Shown here: positions 1 through 16,606 of the stretch, piece after piece
How the letters are laid out: each line of letters opens with the position of its first letter
How positions within the stretch are numbered: position 1 is the first letter of the stretch
Virus record (IMG/VR): IMGVR_UViG_3300008107_000013
Reading direction: 5' to 3' (one strand)
Source of the DNA: an uncultured virus (IMG/VR IMGVR_UViG_3300008107_000013)
Taxonomy: Duplodnaviria > Heunggongvirae > Uroviricota > Caudoviricetes
Length of the DNA stretch: 64,000 bases
Notes under the pieces: model-generated
The model's database searches: none
Told to the model about the DNA's origin: nothing
The model's input: the letters and a program-made list of their open reading frames with translations, nothing else
Program-made: the position numbers and the translations under genes

Positions 1-1856
1 TTGTCGCCAGCTGCGCCAATATCACCCTTGTCACCTTTTGAGCCTGTATCGCCTTTATCTCCTTTAGAACCAGCATCGCCTTTATCGCCAGAAGAACCTT
101 TTTGACCTTTGTCTCCTGCGTCACCGGTTCTAGCAAACGTGATGGTTACAGCAGTGTTGTCACTGAAAGATCCTACTCCAGTTTGATATGCAACAGGTAT
201 TTCAAAATAGTGAGTGTAGTGAGAATGAGTACCATTAATAGAGAAGTAAATAAAGTTATCTGTATTAGCAGTCTCAGTAACAGTAAATGTTCCTTTTATA
301 GTTGACGTTGAGTCATCTATTGTTTGTAAGTAATTGTAGGTGTTAGCGCCGCTTCCGTCCTGCTGATCAATAAAGAGTAACGTAGCGGATGATAGTGTGG
401 CATTATTGAATCGAAGGTATCCATCTCCTGGTTCAGTATTGGATGTTGATGTAGAATAGAAGAAGTCAAATGCAGCACCTCCAAAAGCTCCCTGATCACC
501 TTTAGCGCCCAAGTCTCCTTTATCGCCCTTAGCACCTGATGTTCCGGCGTCGCCTTTATCGCCTTTGTCACCATTAGAACCAATAATACCATCTATACCT
601 TTATCACCTTTTGACCCGGTATCACCTTTGTCGCCTTTAGAGCCTGCGTCGCCTTTTTCACCTTTGTCACCATTAGAACCTATAATACCATCTAATCCTT
701 TCTCGCCTTTTGAGCCAGCGTCACCTTTGTCGCCTTTTGGCCCAGATGCTCCAGTATCTCCTTTATCTCCTTTTGAGCCAACGTCGCTGGCATCTCCTTT
801 TTCACCTTTAGTGCCTGTAGAACCATCTGTTCCTTTATCACCTTTGGCACCTAGGTTTGTGTTAACCCTCCAGGTGCTACCATCATAGGCAATTTCAACA
901 GAAATGTGTCCTATATCAATTAAGAGATCATCGGCACTTCCTTCAATAGTGCTTCCGTTTCTAGCAACAGTTAAACTATTAACACCAAAATCTTCACCGT
1001 CAAAAATTCTTATCCAGTTACCTTGCGTAGGAGTTGACGGTAGAGTAATTGTAAAAGAACCGCTTCCGGTATCGGCGAGGATTACGTCACCGGCAACTGC
1101 TAGGTAATTAGAGTTTGCATATGTGTAAATAGGATCAAAACTATTACCTTTAGCACCAATATCGCCTTTGTCGCCCTTATTACCTTTGTCACCATTGGAT
1201 CCTGATGTGCCGGTGTCACCTTTTGCTCCATTAGTTCCATTAGTTCCAGCGTCACCCTTGTCGCCTTTATCGCCATTTGATCCAATAATACCATCTAATC
1301 CCTTTTCGCCTTTTTGACCAATATCACCTTTATCGCCTTTAGCGCCATTTGATCCAATAATACCATCGATACCCTTATCACCTTTTTGACCGGTATCGCC
1401 TTTATCTCCTGTTGCGCCCGTGACTCCTGCTTCACCTTTCTGACCAGTATCACCCTTGTCCCCCTTGGCACCTGTATCTCCAGTGTTACCCTTATCACCT
1501 ATTCCTCCTGTAACGCCCTTCTCACCTTTGTCACCTGAAATACCTTTTTCACCGGTTTCACCTTTATCACCTGTGGCTCCTGCATCACCTTTCAGACCTT
1601 TATCGCCCTTGGCGCCAGCATCACCAGTAGAACCTTTGTCTCCTGATACTCCTATATCACCTTTGGTACCTGTTGAGCCTGTATCGCCTTTGTCGCCTTT
1701 ATCGCCCGGGGCTCCGGTGTTGCCAGTAGTACCTTGATCTCCTTTTTGACCAGCAGAGCCATTGTCGCCTTTAGCGCCGGCCGAGCCAACCTCACCTTTA
1801 TCTCCTTTTTCTCCGGAGTAAACATCGGCATAAAGATCGGTTAATAAAATTGACAT
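1..1856 (-). CDS. Collagen-like (Gly-X-Y, mostly GDK/GEK) tail fibre protein; 3' end runs off the window
   Basis: ATG at 1856 reads [24 protein letters not shown], followed by long GXK runs. It shares non-collagen domains with the 3866-9100 gene. Absent from the ORF track because no stop lies in the window. Confidence 0.85.
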
Positions 1857-1889
1857 GGGATACCTTTAAGTTATTATACTTTATAATAT

Positions 1890-13625: not shown

Positions 13626-13630
13626 AATGA

Positions 13631-16606
13631 TTAACCGTAAGGATTAAGTTGTCCTGTTACTGTCCAGGCGGATCCTATTCTATAAAATGTTAAGAATAGG
13701 ATATCTATCTTGTTTGCAGTAAAGGGAGGAGATGACCCTCCTAACCATTTAACCGTTTGAGAGGCACCACCAACCTGAATCACACTTGGTCCATACGCAA
13801 CTGCACCTTGAACTAGAATTACCACTGCAGTTACTGCATAACCTGAAGTGGTAGGCACGTTAGTAAAATTGGCCGTCCAGTTAGCAGATTGACTTGTAAC
13901 GTAGAATAGAGAGCCTGACTGTGTATTGAGTGCTACCGTACCTGCAGGGGTAGCAAGCTCGGTGACTGCTTCTTGTACACCCTCAATATCAATGTAGTCA
14001 TTAAACACTACAGGGGTATTGAATGTATTAGGAGTGGCACCGGTAATTGTAATATTACCTGAACCGTCAGAACTTACGGTCGTAAGTCCAGATCCTAATA
14101 TCTTGATCTCAGCATTAGATCCATCACCGCTGGTAATATTCAGCTGAACATTGGCTGATGATGTGTTTGATGCGGATGCTACAGTGTATAGGGTAGTTTG
14201 ACCTTTTTGGCCCTTATCTCCTTTAACCCCTGTTACGTCGTAAGTAGATGAGTCAGAGTTAGTAAATACAATAGTATTGTTAGCGTCAGTATACACGGCG
14301 TTAGAAGTACGCTCTCCTTTTTGACCCTTAACACCGTTTACAGTAAATGTACTACTACTTTGATTTGTAAACGTTATAGTATTATTAGCATCAGTATAAA
14401 CGGCGTTAGCTACTTCGCCAACTTCACCCTTCTGACCTTTTTCACCTTTAACACCAGTTACGTTGTATGTTGAAGAATCGGAGTTAGTAAATACAATTGT
14501 GTTATTAGCGTCAGTGTAGACAGCACTTGATGTTCGCTCACCCTTTACACCTTTTACACCGGTAACACTATACGTTGATGAATCAGAGTTTGTAAATACA
14601 ACAGTGTTGTTTGCGTCAGTATAAACGGCATTGGAGGTTCGCTCGCCCTTCTGACCTTTAAGCCCATTAATGTGAAATACAGAACTATCTGAATTAGTAA
14701 ATACTGTAGTGTTATTTGCATCGGTATAAACAGCAGAAAAAACGCGTTCGCCTTTTTGACCTTTAACACCAGTTACATTGTACGTTGATGAATCAGAATT
14801 AGTAAATATAATTGTGTTATTACCATCATAGTATTGAGCGTTAGAAGTCCGTTCTCCTTTTTGACCCTTCTCACCTTTCTCGCCCTTCTCACCTATCTCA
14901 CCTTTTTGACCCTTTTCACCTTTAGTACCCGCTGGCCCTATCTCTAAAGCAAGTACAGCTCCAGATGGAAACTGACTATCATAGCCAGTTGCTACAGCAT
15001 TAACGTTAAATTGCTTATTTGTTGTTTGACCGGCACTTACTACGTTAGCAATATTATAGATAACTGTCTGCGCTGTATTAGCAACGTTTCTAATTGTAAT
15101 AAAGCCTTTATTAGTGGTATTACCATAATTATTAAAGTATTCAAAATAAGCTTGATTGTTTACAGATTCACGGTCTATACTTCTAATAGTAATAGCAGTA
15201 ACACTGGTAGGAGTAGAGTTATTAAATATTAAAGAAGATGCTGGAGGAACAGAACCTGACTCTGTAGTAGCTGTATTAAAGGTATAAAATATGCCTCTAG
15301 AATCACCCTTCTGACCTTTTACTCCATTGACATCAAACGTAGAAGAATCAGAGTTTGTAAATATAATAGTGTTATTGGCGTCAGTATAAGAAGCACTACT
15401 TACCCGATCCCCTTTGCTTCCTTTATCACCCTTAACTCCAGTAACAGTGAATGTGCTACTGCTTTGATTTGTAAACGTTATAGTATTATTAGCATCGGTG
15501 TAGGTTGCGTTTGCAATTTCACCTACCTCGCCCTTTTGACCTTTTTCACCTTTCTGTCCTTTAACACCGTTGATGTCAAACGTTGCTCCGTCAGAGTTTG
15601 TAAACGTTACTGTATTATTTGCATCAGTGTAGACAGCATTAGATGTGCGCTCGCCCTTTTGACCTTTTTCACCCTTCTCTCCTTTTTGACCTTTTTGGCC
15701 CCCTATGGAATACTCAAGGAAGATAATTTCGTTTGCATCAAAATTAGATCCACTTGTTACTAGATGTGTTACGGGGAAAGAATAAAAGAGTGTATTAGAT
15801 ACAACATTGATACTACTGTCAAGGCTAAAAGTAACAAAATTGGTTGGATTTTCAGCTGATCTAAAAGTTAAAATAGCTTTAGGGGTACTGTCTGTATTAT
15901 CAAGTATCTTTAAAAATTCACTAATATCAGTTGTACCCAATTCCTGTACTGATACTGTGATGGTATTAGCTAATGAATAGACAGCATCATTAAATTTAAT
16001 CTTACCGACACCGGGTGTAACAGATACATCAGCATTAGTATTAAAGCTGTAGACCATATGATTGTATGATCTAAGCGGAAAGTAGTAAGTACCGTCGTTA
16101 GTATATTTCCAAGTGTTTGTGGTTTCATCCCACAACATAAACACGTTGGCTTGATTGCCTCTGTTAACGCCAATTGTTACATTAGACGATGGTGAGTCGC
16201 CGGGATCAATTCCTGAATTTAAAAGAAGGCTTGTGGTTTCAGTTTCTATCGCACCGGTAATAACTGTGTTACCTGTAACTAAAAGATCACCAGTAACCGA
16301 TACGGTACTATTGTTTACCGTTAACTTTACTGCACCTGCCGCAACGTTTAAGCCACCATTTGCAACTAAAATGCCCCATGTGCTAGAATTAGTTACGCTA
16401 AGGCCGCCGTTTGTAATAGTAACCGTATTTCCAACAGTCATCTTACCTGCAATATTTGCAGATACATTATTATTGGCTGAAGATATTACAAGGCTGTTGT
16501 TACCGGATATGCTAACGTTACCTGAAAAGGTAGCTGAATTAGCAAACGAGGATGATCCTACTACGTCAAGACCGTTCTTGACTCTAAAATTTTGCGTGTC
16601 TGACAC
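13631..16606 (-). CDS. Tail fibre protein with short collagen segments and nine YTDANNT repeats
   Basis: N-terminal QNFRVKNGL motif; repeat unit [26 protein letters not shown]. Confidence 0.8.
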   Translation of the reverse strand: MSDTQNFRVKNGLDVVGSSSFANSATFSGNVSISGNNSLVISSANNNVSANIAGKMTVGNTVTITNGGLSVTNSSTWGILVANGGLNVAAGAVKLTVNNSTVSVTGDLLVTGNTVITGAIETETTSLLLNSGIDPGDSPSSNVTIGVNRGNQANVFMLWDETTNTWKYTNDGTYYFPLRSYNHMVYSFNTNADVSVTPGVGKIKFNDAVYSLANTITVSVQELGTTDISEFLKILDNTDSTPKAILTFRSAENPTNFVTFSLDSSINVVSNTLFYSFPVTHLVTSGSNFDANEIIFLEYSIGGQKGQKGEKGEKGQKGERTSNAVYTDANNTVTFTNSDGATFDINGVKGQKGEKGQKGEVGEIANATYTDANNTITFTNQSSSTFTVTGVKGDKGSKGDRVSSASYTDANNTIIFTNSDSSTFDVNGVKGQKGDSRGIFYTFNTATTESGSVPPASSLIFNNSTPTSVTAITIRSIDRESVNNQAYFEYFNNYGNTTNKGFITIRNVANTAQTVIYNIANVVSAGQTTNKQFNVNAVATGYDSQFPSGAVLALEIGPAGTKGEKGQKGEIGEKGEKGEKGQKGERTSNAQYYDGNNTIIFTNSDSSTYNVTGVKGQKGERVFSAVYTDANNTTVFTNSDSSVFHINGLKGQKGERTSNAVYTDANNTVVFTNSDSSTYSVTGVKGVKGERTSSAVYTDANNTIVFTNSDSSTYNVTGVKGEKGQKGEVGEVANAVYTDANNTITFTNQSSSTFTVNGVKGQKGERTSNAVYTDANNTIVFTNSDSSTYDVTGVKGDKGQKGQTTLYTVASASNTSSANVQLNITSGDGSNAEIKILGSGLTTVSSDGSGNITITGATPNTFNTPVVFNDYIDIEGVQEAVTELATPAGTVALNTQSGSLFYVTSQSANWTANFTNVPTTSGYAVTAVVILVQGAVAYGPSVIQVGGASQTVKWLGGSSPPFTANKIDILFLTFYRIGSAWTVTGQLNPYG

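What the first reader, a model, noticed from the sequence alone, without database searches (positions are those of the whole stretch)
1..16606. Candidate phage collagen hydroxylation and glycosylation system: a three-domain COLGALT + PLOD-GT + lysyl hydroxylase enzyme among Gly-X-Lys collagen fibre genes
Seen: ORF 9128-11152 lies 28 bp upstream of, and co-oriented with, a 1744-aa collagen-like gene, with two more collagen-bearing genes nearby. It has three recognisable parts. The GT25 domain (about 11152-10450) carries DPxxGRP, YWxxAYxIS and PVDEFxP, as in the animal collagen galactosyltransferase COLGALT1 and not just generic LPS GT25. The PLOD/LH3-type GT domain (about 10385-9720) carries GGGQK, FVDGYDV, CWPD, NSG, DDQL and HxNG. 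The 2OG-Fe(II) domain (about 9650-9128) carries HHDAS and THxHEG. Established: animals make Glc-Gal-hydroxylysine on X-Lys-Gly using PLOD hydroxylase, then COLGALT, then the LH3 GT domain; mimivirus L230 is a bifunctional LH/GT. Inference: this phage fuses all three steps in one polypeptide, apparently without the PLOD accessory domain, and glycosylates its own fibres, perhaps for helix stability, protease shielding or adhesion. I do not know of a characterised bacteriophage example.
Basis: partly seen in the sequence, partly recalled or inferred. Interest (0 to 1): 0.93.

Follow-up and report, generated by a model that had tools for sequence, protein, structure and literature searches.

The report
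Phage three-in-one collagen lysine-modifying enzyme
A freshwater T4-like bacteriophage encodes one protein that joins relatives of the three animal enzymes that hydroxylate collagen lysines and add two sugars, placed among lysine-rich collagen-like tail-fibre genes, so this virus probably sugar-coats its own fibres, a chemistry not yet described for phages.

Summary
ORF 9128-11152 (-) encodes 674 aa with three domains. They are a COLGALT-like GT25 domain, a PLOD/LH3-type GT domain and an LH-like 2OG-Fe(II) oxygenase domain. It has no PLOD accessory domain and no COLGALT N-terminal domain. All 13 PDB sequence hits are collagen lysine-modifying enzymes. The metal, donor and catalytic-base residues I mapped are kept in all 47 aligned homologues.

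The gene lies 27 nt upstream of a 1744-aa collagen-like fibre gene in a T4-like structural block. In the window's collagens, Lys never occupies the X position and sits almost only in G-X-K-G.

The fusion forms a large uncharacterised family: 376 protein hits, 170 IMG/VR loci, and cultured phages S-PRM1, S-CAM9 and CRP-6. Collagen genes next to the enzyme have Lys at 32% of Y positions. Related fibre modules without the enzyme have 2.7%.

Most likely the enzyme acts in the cytoplasm, hydroxylating fibre lysines and then adding two sugars. The activity, the sugars and the benefit to the phage are inferred. Nine literature searches found no phage precedent. I rate it a new variant of a known kind, confidence about 0.75.

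The parts
9128..11152 (-). Three-domain enzyme gene, 674 aa (P0001): GT25, then PLOD-type GT, then LH-like oxygenase
   Evidence: The AF2 model has mean pLDDT 90.4 with disordered linkers at 237-253 and 485-487.
10445..11152 (-). Domain 1, residues 1-236: GT25 domain like the catalytic C-terminal domain of COLGALT1/GLT25D1
   Evidence: Pfam GT25 4.2e-16. COLGALT1 chains score 1.9e-13 over residues 3-174. Foldseek hit 9evj_A scores 3.7e-15. R14, D93/D94 and D168/E169 correspond to COLGALT1 R354, D436/D437 and D522/E523.
9701..10393 (-). Domain 2, residues about 254-484: PLOD/LH3-type glycosyltransferase domain
   Evidence: Pfam GT_PLOD 1.1e-51. LH3 domain E-value 4.3e-27 and mimivirus R699 3.6e-31. 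Foldseek hit 6wfv has TM 0.87 by target and rmsd 2.0. W293, D327, D330, W360, D404 and H463 are invariant in 47 of 47 sequences.
9131..9691 (-). Domain 3, residues about 488-674: lysyl-hydroxylase-like 2OG-Fe(II) oxygenase domain
   Evidence: LH3 2e-11 and mimivirus L230 3.6e-09. Foldseek hit 6ax7_B has TM 0.79 by target. H599, D601, H648 and K658 are invariant in 47 of 47 sequences.
3866..9100 (-). Collagen-like fibre gene, 1744 aa (P0002), the likely main substrate
   Evidence: Pfam Collagen 4.4e-133 with 16 stretches. Of 311 triplets, 150 have K at Y and 0 have K at X. There are 154 G-X-K-G sites among 169 Lys.
3..1856 (-). Second collagen-like fibre gene; 618 aa are visible and the C-terminal end runs off the window (P0003)
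   Evidence: Pfam Collagen 1.1e-58. Of 127 triplets, 61 have K at Y and 0 have K at X. Of 62 Lys, 61 lie in G-X-K-G.
13631..16606 (-). Fibre protein, 991 aa (P0005), with short GXK collagen segments between repeated YTDANNT..FTNSD units
   Evidence: PHROG tail-fibre families. Pfam Collagen 26.2 bits, under the cut-off. It has 35 G-X-K-G sites.
11781..13625 (-). Fibre-module protein, 614 aa (P0004), with a He_PIG Ig-like domain and a glycine-rich domain
   Evidence: Pfam He_PIG 2.6e-10. Gly_rich_2 scores 20.2 bits, under the cut-off.
11424..11756 (-). 110-aa protein resembling tail-fibre assembly proteins; used as the anchor for the control loci
   Evidence: phrog_1084 1.9e-29 and phrog_3304 'L-shaped tail fiber protein assembly' 1.3e-24.
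1890..2354 (-). Tail-fibre assembly chaperone
   Evidence: Pfam Phage_tail_APC 2.2e-19. phrog_4912 4e-17.

Best explanation
The 674-aa protein is a cytoplasmic, trifunctional enzyme that modifies collagen lysines. It acts on the phage's own collagen-like tail-fibre proteins before or during their assembly.

The proposed steps are these.
1. The C-terminal 2OG/Fe(II) oxygenase domain hydroxylates Lys at the Y position of G-X-K-G.
2. The N-terminal GT25 domain, equivalent to the catalytic domain of COLGALT1, transfers a first sugar to the new hydroxyl group. By analogy this sugar is galactose from UDP-Gal.
3. The middle LH3/R699-type GT domain adds a second sugar. By analogy this is glucose, giving Glc-Gal-Hyl.

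The fusion is a covalent, minimal counterpart of the human LH3/COLGALT1 complex and lacks both non-catalytic domains.

Shown here:
- the homology and fold of the three domains;
- conservation of the catalytic residues;
- linkage to fibre genes with Lys at the Y position across many phage lineages.

Inferred:
- enzymatic activity and the order of the steps;
- the identity of the sugars;
- the benefit to the phage. Candidates are stabilising or hydrating a proline-poor triple helix, shielding from proteases, and receptor contact.
For: 1. Homology. All 13 PDB sequences hit at E <= 1 are collagen lysine-modifying enzymes: LH3, mimivirus R699, COLGALT1, mimivirus L230 and R655. The Foldseek ranks shown down to 30 are the same set. 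LH3 scores 1.4e-31. 6wfv has TM 0.87 by target. COLGALT1 scores 3.7e-15. L230 has TM 0.79 by target.

2. Catalytic residues, checked in 47 aligned homologues of 38-81% identity.
- GT25 domain: D93/D94 correspond to COLGALT1 D436/D437. D168/E169 correspond to the catalytic base D522 and to E523, which holds the hydroxylysine amino group (PMC12987934, passages). All are invariant.
- PLOD GT domain: D327, D330 and H463 (the Mn site), W293, W360 and D404 are invariant.
- LH domain: H599, D601, H648 and K658 are invariant.
- The same residues are kept in 15 further IMG/VR homologues from distant clades.

3. Substrate signature in the window. K at Y is 150 of 311, 61 of 127 and 25 of 35 triplets in the three fibre genes. 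K at X is 0 in all three. Of 169 Lys in the 1744-aa protein, 154 lie in G-X-K-G. In the truncated protein it is 61 of 62.

4. Co-occurrence.
- 56 of 80 IMG/VR loci with the enzyme have a collagen ORF within the flanks.
- I searched the whole records of 5 of the 24 loci without one. Three had collagen elsewhere in the record, 2 of them above the Pfam cut-off. K at Y was 21 of 26 triplets in one record, and 30 of 144 and 36 of 170 in two overlapping stretches of the same ORF in another.
- K fills 32.4% of 7001 Y positions in enzyme loci. It fills 2.7% of 3244 in related fibre modules without the enzyme.
- The K-at-Y share is at least 0.15 in 45 of 51 enzyme loci against 3 of 28 control loci. Mann-Whitney p = 2e-10.
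- Of 17 enzyme clusters at 60% identity, 11 carry such collagen.

5. The pairing recurs on unrelated backbones.
- Cyanomyoviruses S-PRM1 and S-CAM9, and Roseobacter phage CRP-6, which has a tape-measure gene.
- A 53.8-kb genome with terminal repeats.
- The chromosomes of Streptomyces kronopolitis and Kaistia terrae.

6. Placement. The gene sits inside a co-oriented, tightly packed structural gene block. No terminator-like site lies on its strand between it and the collagen gene.
Against: - No biochemical or proteomic datum exists for any member of the family.
- The residue that binds 2OG in LH3 and L230 is Arg. Here it is Lys (K658), in all 47 sequences.
- Two COLGALT1 acceptor-cleft residues are not fully kept. 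W141 (W495) is Trp in 30 of 47 sequences. K121 (K470) is Lys or Arg in 43 of 47. Both are Asn in the cyanophage clade.
- The Pfam GT25 model covers only positions 3-124 of 199.
- The nearest cellular relatives of the oxygenase domain are 39% identical (BLASTP 7e-48). They are stand-alone Acidimicrobiia proteins. None of their 76 loci has a collagen gene. This oxygenase subfamily is therefore not tied to collagen as such.
- Six of 51 enzyme loci have collagens with little Lys at Y, although 3 of them start with a short GXK cluster.
- Lys at Y followed by Asp or Glu also stabilises triple helices electrostatically (recalled knowledge). Part of the Lys pattern could therefore have a structural cause.
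- The control loci are close kin of each other, forming 3 clusters at 60% identity. The p-value overstates independence.
Confidence: 0.75

Rival explanations
1. The target is the same (fibre lysines at Y) but the glycan differs. For example, the LH3-like GT domain could put glucose directly on hydroxylysine, as reported for mimivirus L230. The GT25 domain could add another sugar or use another nucleotide sugar. The product would then not be the animal Glc-Gal-Hyl.
For: L230 is described as a hydroxylysyl glucosyltransferase, whereas R699 is a galactosylhydroxylysyl glucosyltransferase (PMC9546862, passages). PLOD-type GT domains therefore differ in acceptor. The acceptor-cleft residues W141 and K121 vary within the phage family. 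Variants with two GT25 stretches exist, about 950 aa long. So do phage clusters that fuse GT25 with GT4, a methyltransferase or OGFOD2-like oxygenases.
Against: In the window's own protein the COLGALT1 catalytic base and Hyl-anchoring pair (D168/E169), the YW motif (Y140/W141) and K121 are all present. The middle domain matches the GGT enzymes R699 and 6wfv best.
Confidence: 0.15
2. The enzyme acts on something other than the collagen-like fibres, such as another virion protein, a host protein or host surface glycans like LPS. It would sit in the fibre module only because late structural genes are clustered there.
For: Source databases label members 'GR25 family glycosyltransferase involved in LPS biosynthesis'. 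Relatives of the oxygenase domain in Acidimicrobiia are not linked to collagen. An earlier scan note reports LH-like enzymes in a phage without collagen (e1-6093625, unchecked). The window also carries a separate sugar-nucleotide and GT1 cluster at 56414-60372.
Against: The association is with collagens that have Lys at Y, not with fibre modules in general. Of 75 related fibre modules without the enzyme, 34 have collagen, but with only 2.7% Lys at Y. The enzyme and Lys-at-Y collagen travel together across unrelated phage backbones and two bacterial chromosomes. The COLGALT1 residues that hold hydroxylysine are kept.
Confidence: 0.07
3. One or more of the three domains is catalytically dead and serves only as a scaffold or a binding module for collagen chains.
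For: Human LH3 and COLGALT1 each carry a non-catalytic GT-like domain (the NGT of COLGALT1: PMC12987934, passages). Arg is replaced by Lys at the 2OG-binding position.
Against: The metal-binding and catalytic residues of all three domains are invariant in 47 of 47 homologues and in 15 further loci. Natural split forms keep each part as an intact gene. Lys is a normal 2OG ligand in other 2OG oxygenases (recalled knowledge).
Confidence: 0.03

Closest known systems
Human LH3/PLOD3 (PDB 6fxk, 6fxr, 6wfv) and the LH3/COLGALT1 complex (PDB 8zgc)
   Same: The GT domain shares the Mn-binding D..D and His (D327, D330, H463), the GGGQK loop with Trp (W293), W360 and the DD of the poly-Asp stretch (D404/D405). 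The LH domain shares the HxD...H iron triad. The target logic is the same: Lys at Y of G-X-K-G.
   Different: There is no accessory domain between GT and LH, only about 26 residues where LH3 has about 296. Lys replaces the 2OG-binding Arg. The galactosyltransferase is part of the same chain rather than a separate partner protein. By placement in a phage genome it is a cytoplasmic enzyme rather than an ER enzyme (inference). LH3 residue numbers are recalled. I checked them against the chain numbering and the mutant names.
Human COLGALT1/GLT25D1 (PDB 9evj, 9u7h; PMC12987934)
   Same: Domain 1 aligns with the catalytic C-terminal GT25 domain, E 1.9e-13. It keeps R354, D436/D437, K470, Y494/W495 and D522/E523 as R14, D93/D94, K121, Y140/W141 and D168/E169.
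   Different: It lacks the N-terminal non-catalytic GT domain that binds UDP-galactose. W141 and K121 are not conserved across the whole phage family. The lid-loop residues S569/T571 could not be mapped.
Acanthamoeba polyphaga mimivirus L230, R699 and R655
   Same: This is a virus-encoded machinery for collagen lysine hydroxylation and glycosylation that acts on the virus's own collagen-like proteins. R699 matches domain 2 at 3.6e-31. L230 matches domain 3 at 3.6e-09. R655 matches domain 1 at 0.0012 (PMC9546862, passages).
   Different: Mimivirus spreads the functions over separate proteins: L230 is bifunctional, and R699 and R655 are separate. Its host is a eukaryote. Here all three modules are in one 674-aa chain of a bacteriophage.
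Uncharacterised phage homologues: Synechococcus phages S-PRM1, S-CAM9 and S-8S53/55/56, and Roseobacter phage CRP-6
   Same: They have the same three-domain fusion over 95-100% of the length at 34-38% identity. In each of the three loci examined, a collagen-like fibre gene with K at Y lies within a few kb upstream.
   Different: They are annotated only as 'hypothetical protein' or '2OG-Fe(II) oxygenase'. In the cyanophages the collagens have Pro at X, and two further 2OG oxygenase genes lie directly upstream. The window's collagens are proline-poor, with 37 Pro in 1744 aa.

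Membership tests
PLOD/LH3-type glycosyltransferase domain (Pfam PF25342 GT_PLOD) | Profile match above the curated cut-off | tested here: met
   175.9 bits against a cut-off of 27, residues 258-470, profile positions 5-227 of 246
PLOD/LH3-type glycosyltransferase domain (Pfam PF25342 GT_PLOD) | Mn-binding D-x-x-D plus His (LH3 D112, D115, H253; numbering recalled and checked) | tested here: met
   D327, D330 and H463 align to them and are invariant in 47 of 47 sequences
PLOD/LH3-type glycosyltransferase domain (Pfam PF25342 GT_PLOD) | Donor-site elements: Trp of the GGGQK loop, W145 and the DD of the poly-Asp stretch | tested here: met
   W293, G302-K306, W360 and D404/D405. M298 stands where LH3 has V80.
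PLOD/LH3-type glycosyltransferase domain (Pfam PF25342 GT_PLOD) | Glucosyl transfer to galactosyl-hydroxylysine | not testable with these tools
   Needs an enzyme assay
Collagen lysyl hydroxylase domain (LH3 C-terminal domain, mimivirus L230) | Double-stranded beta-helix fold superposable on LH3 and L230 | tested here: met
   Foldseek 6ax7_B E 6.4e-12, TM 0.79 by target; 6ax6_B TM 0.76
Collagen lysyl hydroxylase domain (LH3 C-terminal domain, mimivirus L230) | Fe(II) triad H-x-D...H | tested here: met
   H599, D601 and H648 align with the LH3 HHD and THYHEG motifs and are invariant in 47 of 47 sequences
Collagen lysyl hydroxylase domain (LH3 C-terminal domain, mimivirus L230) | Arg that binds the 2OG C5 carboxylate (LH3 R729; numbering recalled) | tested here: not met
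   Lys (K658) stands at the position of Arg in both LH3 and L230. It is invariant in 47 of 47 sequences. A basic residue is kept, so function is plausible, but the residue differs.
Collagen lysyl hydroxylase domain (LH3 C-terminal domain, mimivirus L230) | Homodimer through the LH domain | not tested
   No complex prediction was run
Collagen lysyl hydroxylase domain (LH3 C-terminal domain, mimivirus L230) | 5-hydroxylation of Lys in X-Lys-Gly | not testable with these tools
   Supported only by context: the fibre genes have Lys at Y
GT25 / collagen galactosyltransferase catalytic domain (COLGALT1 C-terminal domain) | Pfam GT25 match above the cut-off | tested here: met
   59.9 bits against a cut-off of 24, but only profile positions 3-124 of 199
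GT25 / collagen galactosyltransferase catalytic domain (COLGALT1 C-terminal domain) | UDP/Mn-binding D436/D437 and R354 | tested here: met
   D93/D94 are invariant. R14 is Arg in 45 of 47 sequences and Lys in 2.
GT25 / collagen galactosylltransferase catalytic domain (COLGALT1 C-terminal domain) | Catalytic base D522 and the Hyl-anchoring E523 | tested here: met
   D168/E169 lie in PVDEF and are invariant in 47 of 47 sequences
GT25 / collagen galactosyltransferase catalytic domain (COLGALT1 C-terminal domain) | Acceptor-cleft residues K470 and Y494/W495 | tested here: inconclusive
   All are present in the window's protein (K121, Y140, W141). Across the family, Y140 is kept in 47 of 47, W141 in 30 of 47, and K121 is K or R in 43 of 47. 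Both W141 and K121 are Asn in cyanophage-clade loci.
GT25 / collagen galactosyltransferase catalytic domain (COLGALT1 C-terminal domain) | Two-lobe architecture with an N-terminal UDP-Gal-binding GT domain | tested here: not met
   Phage residue 3 aligns to residue 303-316 of the COLGALT1 chains, and nothing precedes it
GT25 / collagen galactosyltransferase catalytic domain (COLGALT1 C-terminal domain) | Closer to collagen-type than to bacterial LPS-type GT25 | tested here: inconclusive
   Foldseek gives COLGALT1 3.7e-15, against 7.7e-07 for a 'beta-1,4-galactosyltransferase' (8xkd) whose family I did not verify. In the ESM Atlas, chordate GLT25D clusters reach TM 0.83-0.85 and no bacterial cluster appears among the ten rows (a lead only). 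No tree with LPS enzymes was built.
Collagen triple-helix repeat proteins (Pfam PF01391) | Long uninterrupted G-X-Y runs and a profile match | tested here: met
   433.6 and 195.2 bits for P0002 and P0003, with runs up to 270 and 225 residues. P0005 scores 26.2 bits, just under the 27.2 cut-off.

The most novel reading that the evidence does not exclude
Animal-type hydroxylysine-linked glycosylation of collagen would not be confined to metazoans and giant viruses. It would be a widespread trait of aquatic bacteriophages and of a few bacteria, carried out by a minimal single-chain enzyme with a galactosyltransferase, a glucosyltransferase and a lysyl hydroxylase. The resulting glycan coat on the tail fibres would be a functional determinant of virion stability or host recognition. 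The prokaryotic and viral pool of these modules could be the evolutionary source of the metazoan PLOD/COLGALT machinery, or a repeated recipient from it.
Probability: 0.3. Interest if true: 0.9.

Novelty: new variant of a known kind. Interest (0 to 1): 0.78.

Why it matters
Hydroxylysine glycosylation of collagen is treated as a hallmark of animals, with mimivirus as the one viral case. Here the complete enzyme set appears in bacteriophages, condensed into one soluble 674-aa chain. It forms a family with hundreds of members in lakes and oceans, including phages that are already in culture.

If the enzyme is active, three things follow.
1. It adds a new kind of post-translational modification to phage virions, on the very proteins that contact the host.
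2. It gives a simple system for studying how the three collagen-modifying activities are coupled. That system has neither an ER nor accessory domains.
3. It offers a candidate tool for making hydroxylated and glycosylated recombinant collagen in bacteria. PMC9546862 (passages) says this is not yet possible with the human glycosyltransferases.

It also bears on where the animal collagen-modifying enzymes came from.

Tried and rejected
- **Literature.** Nine full-text searches found no paper on lysyl hydroxylation or Hyl-glycosylation in a bacteriophage. One search failed on term syntax and was redone. PMC13382579 holds none of 'phage', 'virus' or 'bacteri' (term look-up only). Iyer et al. 2010 (PMC2938197, passages) predicted that bacterial beta-hydroxylases modify collagen-like proteins. 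They read the cyanophage dioxygenase arrays as secondary metabolism and do not mention an LH/GT fusion. Subscription journals are not in the library.
- **NCBIfam.** No family matched the enzyme or three neighbouring proteins.
- **Late promoter.** The T4 late-promoter motif TATAAATA occurs 4 times against 10 expected, so it is not informative.
- **Promoter and terminator scans.** Terminator-like sites were fewer than in the shuffles and promoter-like sites about two standard deviations above them, so neither scan is informative.
- **Expression.** No RNA holder was listed among the public runs. No reads were laid.
- **Own genome.** The window's own assembly is not held. Only a 19-kb fragment, G001, could be searched.
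- **Stand-alone GT25 relatives.** The search for shorter proteins gave 8 hits, mostly split forms of the same fusion. It gave no bacterial LPS enzymes to compare with.
- **Cupredoxin idea.** I suspected a cupredoxin in P0002 residues 1269-1371 ('[10 protein letters not shown]'). This is not supported. A Pfam scan of an overlapping stretch found only Collagen. The PDB search gave only weak antibody light-chain-like hits, E 0.06. The relaxed Pfam scan of that stretch failed because of a frame error in a second item, and I did not repeat it.
- **Cluster control.** Clustering the control loci at 60% identity left only 3 clusters, so a cluster-level contingency test was not meaningful.
- **Not run.** No complex prediction, representative-library search or second structure prediction was run.

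Full report
**What is in the sequence**

The left 38 kb of the window is one co-oriented (-) block of tightly packed genes. PHROG profiles identify T4-type baseplate wedge, hub and tail-tube proteins. Further right they identify gp32-like SSB, a helicase loader, RNase H and ribonucleotide reductase. The gp6-like wedge protein is at most 39% identical to any cultured phage. Its best matches are Caulobacter phage Cr30 and the Sinorhizobium phiM12 group. A 20-kb stretch has no near-identical phage record.

The enzyme gene's DNA recurs in 20 freshwater or lake DNA runs from 10 studies. The window is therefore an uncultured freshwater T4-like myovirus.

Inside the fibre part of the block lies ORF 9128-11152 (-), 674 aa. 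Upstream of it are an 83-aa ORF, a 110-aa fibre-assembly-like protein and two fibre proteins. A 1744-aa collagen-like protein follows after 27 nt. Then come three small ORFs, including a Phage_tail_APC chaperone, and a second collagen-like gene that runs off the window.

**The enzyme**

Pfam finds three domains, each above its curated cut-off: GT25 at 2-123, GT_PLOD at 258-470 and 2OG-FeII_Oxy_3 at 587-665.

Against all PDB sequences, 13 distinct sequences match at E <= 1, and all 13 are collagen lysine-modifying enzymes.
- Human LH3 matches through both its GT domain (domain E-value 4.3e-27) and its LH domain (4.8e-09).
- Mimivirus R699 matches at 3.6e-31.
- Human COLGALT1 matches at 8e-13.
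- Mimivirus L230 matches at 1.7e-08.
- Mimivirus R655 matches at 0.006.

An AlphaFold2 model built on 47 homologues has mean pLDDT 90.4. It shows three compact domains joined by disordered linkers at 237-253 and 485-487. The low pTM of 0.45 means the relative placement of the domains is not defined.

Foldseek against the PDB returns the same enzymes first.
- LH3 scores 1.4e-31.
- The isolated human GGT domain 6wfv has TM 0.87 by target and rmsd 2.0.
- R699 and COLGALT1 (3.7e-15) follow.
- L230 has TM 0.79 by target, and R655 is also listed.
- Other 2OG oxygenases and a 'beta-1,4-galactosyltransferase' come only at about 1e-7.

Two architectural points follow from the alignments.
- LH3 has about 296 residues between its matched GT and LH parts. 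The phage protein has about 26, so the accessory domain is missing.
- Phage residue 3 aligns to residue 303-316 of the COLGALT1 chains. The non-catalytic N-terminal lobe of COLGALT1 is therefore missing as well.

According to PMC12987934 (passages), the C-terminal lobe alone carries the catalytic site, and in isolation it modifies peptide substrates.

**Catalytic residues**

I mapped the residues named in PMC12987934 through the HMMER alignment.

| COLGALT1 | Phage protein |
|---|---|
| R354 | R14 |
| D436/D437 | D93/D94 |
| K470 | K121 |
| Y494/W495 | Y140/W141 |
| D522 (base) and E523 (holds the Hyl amino group) | D168/E169 |

For LH3 I used residue numbers recalled from the LH3 structure papers. 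I checked them against the constant offset of 23 in the chain numbering and against the mutant names 'Val80Lys' and 'Asp190Ser'.

| LH3 | Phage protein |
|---|---|
| W75 | W293 |
| V80 | M298 |
| D112/D115 | D327/D330 |
| W145 | W360 |
| D190/D191 | D404/D405 |
| H253 | H463 |
| H667/D669/H719 | H599/D601/H648 |
| R729 | K658 |

In an alignment of 47 homologues, 38-81% identical to the query, these residues are invariant: D93, D94, Y140, D168, E169, W293, D327, D330, W360, D404, H463, H599, D601, H648 and K658. Fifteen further IMG/VR homologues from other clades keep them too.

Three things do not fit perfectly.
- Lys replaces the 2OG-binding Arg of LH3 and L230. The replacement is invariant in the family.
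- W141 is Trp in only 30 of 47 sequences. K121 is Lys or Arg in 43 of 47. Both are Asn in the cyanophage clade.
- The Pfam GT25 model covers only its first 124 of 199 positions.

**The presumed substrates**

The table gives the Lys counts in the window's three collagen-bearing genes.

| Gene | K at Y / triplets | K at X | Lys in G-X-K-G / all Lys |
|---|---|---|---|
| 3866-9100 (1744 aa) | 150 / 311 | 0 | 154 / 169 |
| 3-1856 (truncated) | 61 / 127 | 0 | 61 / 62 |
| 13631-16606 (991 aa) | 25 / 35 | 0 | 35 / 48 |

The commonest triplets are GDK and GEK. Proline is scarce, with 37 in 1744 aa. X-Lys-Gly is exactly the context in which animal LH and COLGALT1 act (PMC12987934, passages).

**Distribution**

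The word-indexed protein search found 376 homologues at E <= 0.001. Of the best 120, 108 cover at least 97% of the query. Their only source names are 'GR25 family glycosyltransferase involved in LPS biosynthesis' or 'hypothetical protein'.

Among 50,697 phage records, 11 hold the full-length fusion. They are Synechococcus phages S-PRM1, S-CAM9 and S-8S53/55/56, Roseobacter phage CRP-6 and one single-virus amplified genome. They are annotated as hypothetical protein or 2OG-Fe(II) oxygenase.

IMG/VR holds 170 confirmed loci, of which I fetched the best 80.

Variant architectures exist.
- Split forms, with GT25 as one gene and GT+LH as the next, occur on two contigs.
- Forms of about 950 aa with two GT25 stretches also occur.

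In bacterial genomes the picture is mixed.
- The GT+LH pair occurs in Streptomyces kronopolitis. A 171-aa collagen-like gene lies directly upstream and a separate GT25 gene lies just downstream.
- It also occurs in Kaistia terrae, with a collagen-like gene 7 kb upstream.
- Seventy-six loci, almost all from Acidimicrobiia, hold only a stand-alone 200-aa relative of the oxygenase domain. It is 39% identical (BLASTP 7e-48). None of these 76 loci has a collagen ORF.

**Linkage test**

Of the 80 IMG/VR enzyme loci, 56 contain a collagen-like ORF (a run of at least 6 triplets) within the available flanks.

Most of the 24 without one are cut close to the enzyme gene. I searched the whole records of 5 of these 24 with the Collagen profile. 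Three have collagen elsewhere in the record, 2 of them above the cut-off. In one, a complete 53.8-kb genome with terminal repeats, a 2055-aa collagen ORF sits at the other end of the linear record. K at Y there is 21 of 26 triplets in one record, and 30 of 144 and 36 of 170 in two overlapping stretches of the same ORF in the other.

As a control I fetched 77 IMG/VR loci anchored on homologues of the 110-aa fibre-assembly-like protein that lies two genes upstream of the enzyme. Two of them contain the enzyme. Of the other 75, 34 have collagen-like ORFs and 41 have none.

For the comparison I dropped identical ORFs and counted only runs of at least 8 triplets.

| Measure | Enzyme loci | Control loci |
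|---|---|---|
| Loci with unique collagen ORFs | 51 | 28 |
| Y positions counted | 7001 | 3244 |
| Lys share at Y | 32.4% | 2.7% |
| Median per locus | 0.35 | 0 |
| Loci with share >= 0.15 | 45 of 51 | 3 of 28 |

Mann-Whitney gives p = 2e-10. In all 3 control exceptions the collagen ORF abuts a contig end, so an enzyme gene just beyond the end cannot be excluded.

Of the six enzyme loci with little Lys at Y, three begin their long GXQ collagen with a short GXK cluster.

Loci are not independent. At 60% identity the enzyme loci form 17 clusters, of which 13 have collagen and 11 have a Lys share of at least 0.15. The control anchor collapses to 3 clusters. The p-value is therefore only a rough guide.

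The qualitative result is robust because it recurs on unrelated backbones. These are the freshwater T4-like phages, the cyanomyoviruses, CRP-6 (which has a tape-measure gene), the 53.8-kb genome and the two bacterial chromosomes.

**Mechanism proposed**

The fibre proteins are made and trimerised in the host cytoplasm, where Fe(II), 2-oxoglutarate, O2 and UDP-sugars are available (established general knowledge). I propose three steps on unfolded or folding chains.
1. The C-terminal domain 5-hydroxylates Y-position lysines.
2. The GT25 domain transfers galactose to the new hydroxyl group.
3. The LH3/R699-like domain adds glucose.

The single chain would thus do what the human LH3/COLGALT1 complex does (title of PDB 8zgc).

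The homology, the conserved active sites and the linkage to collagens with Lys at Y are shown. The activities, their order, the sugars and the benefit are inferred. L230 is reported to glucosylate hydroxylysine directly, while R699 extends Gal-Hyl (PMC9546862, passages). The acceptor of a PLOD-type GT domain therefore cannot be read from homology alone. I put about 0.75 on 'hydroxylates and glycosylates the fibres' lysines' and about 0.4 on the exact animal disaccharide.

**Cautions**

Lys at Y followed by Asp or Glu at the next X also stabilises proline-poor triple helices through ion pairs (recalled knowledge). Part of the Lys pattern may therefore be structural.

The stand-alone Acidimicrobiia relatives show that this oxygenase subfamily has at least one use unrelated to collagen.

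**Comparison and novelty**

The kind of system is known: hydroxylation and glycosylation of collagen lysines in animals and in mimivirus. Three things are new here.
- The host range is new: bacteriophages and a few bacteria.
- The single-chain architecture is new: GalT-like, GGT-like and LH-like domains without the accessory domain or the N-terminal lobe.
- The scale is new: hundreds of homologues in lakes and oceans.

Nine full-text searches found no description of this chemistry in phages.

Earlier notes of this same scan report related phage modules in other architectures, namely split genes, GT25-LH and GT4-GT25-LH. These are unchecked AI notes from the same pipeline, not independent evidence. 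They do suggest that the three-domain form is one variant of a broader phage theme.

**Verdict**

It is a new variant of a known kind. Interest is 0.78.

Noticed in passing
L186:8790-10531, and L176-L251 generally: Genomes almost all from Acidimicrobiia/Ilumatobacteraceae carry a stand-alone oxygenase of about 200 aa, 39% identical to the phage LH-like domain. None of 76 loci has a collagen ORF. In 59 of 76 a truncated GluRS-like gene (tRNA-synt_1c catalytic domain) is present, and in L186 it lies directly upstream. This conserved pair is unexplained.
   Followed up: partly
L174:8948-12564 (Streptomyces kronopolitis); L173:1119-11269 (Kaistia terrae): These are chromosomal bacterial versions of the module. 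In Streptomyces the order is a 171-aa collagen-like gene, a 478-aa GT_PLOD+2OG gene, an IS fragment and a 259-aa GT25 gene. In Kaistia a 444-aa GT_PLOD+2OG gene has a 480-aa collagen-like gene 7 kb upstream.
   Followed up: partly
Proteins P0088, P0095, P0098 (942-956 aa, metagenomic): These are longer relatives with two GT25 stretches followed by GT_PLOD and the 2OG domain. They may add a further sugar, or they may be a counterpart of the two-lobe COLGALT1.
   Followed up: no
L013 and L009 (IMG/VR contigs of 71,712 and 41,036 bases): These are natural split forms. A 229-245-aa GT25 protein (P0126, P0128) and a 377-417-aa GT_PLOD(+2OG) protein (P0079, P0091) lie on the same contigs.
   Followed up: no
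window 56414-60372 (-): A sugar-nucleotide cluster holds a SIS-domain isomerase, a GHMP kinase, a GT1 glycosyltransferase, an NAD-dependent epimerase/dehydratase and a cytidylyltransferase-like protein. PHROG names the last one heptose kinase/adenylyltransferase. It looks like an activated-heptose pathway with its own transferase. Its target is unknown.
   Followed up: no
window 51367-52412 (-): Adjacent genes encode a CMD (AhpD-like) protein and an AhpC/TSA peroxiredoxin, a peroxide-detoxifying pair in a phage genome.
   Followed up: no
L001:10839-12004 and L002:10839-12004 (S-PRM1, S-CAM9): In the cyanophages, two further small 2OG-Fe(II) oxygenase genes lie directly upstream of the three-domain gene, and the linked collagen has Pro at X in about half of the triplets. 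These might be prolyl hydroxylases. The window has no such genes and its collagens are proline-poor.
   Followed up: no
window 4988-5296 (-), P0002 residues 1269-1371: A globular insert of about 100 aa lies between collagen segments and carries a '[10 protein letters not shown]' motif. An overlapping stretch had no Pfam family other than Collagen. The only PDB hits are weak antibody light-chain-like ones, so it is probably an Ig-like sandwich.
   Followed up: partly
window 13631-16606 (-), P0005; also P0002 residues 541 and 1017: A unit of about 40 aa, 'YTDANNT(I/V).FTNSDSSTF.V.GVKG', is repeated many times, each copy separated by a few GXK triplets. Three copies of a domain of about 115 aa, 'GGAAF...TFARTGD', are inserted in P0002.
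   Followed up: no
ESM Atlas clusters (no coordinates): Uroviricota clusters fuse GT25 with OGFOD2-like 2OG oxygenases, GT4 domains or a methyltransferase. This suggests a wider set of phage hydroxylase-glycosyltransferase fusions (a lead only).
   Followed up: no
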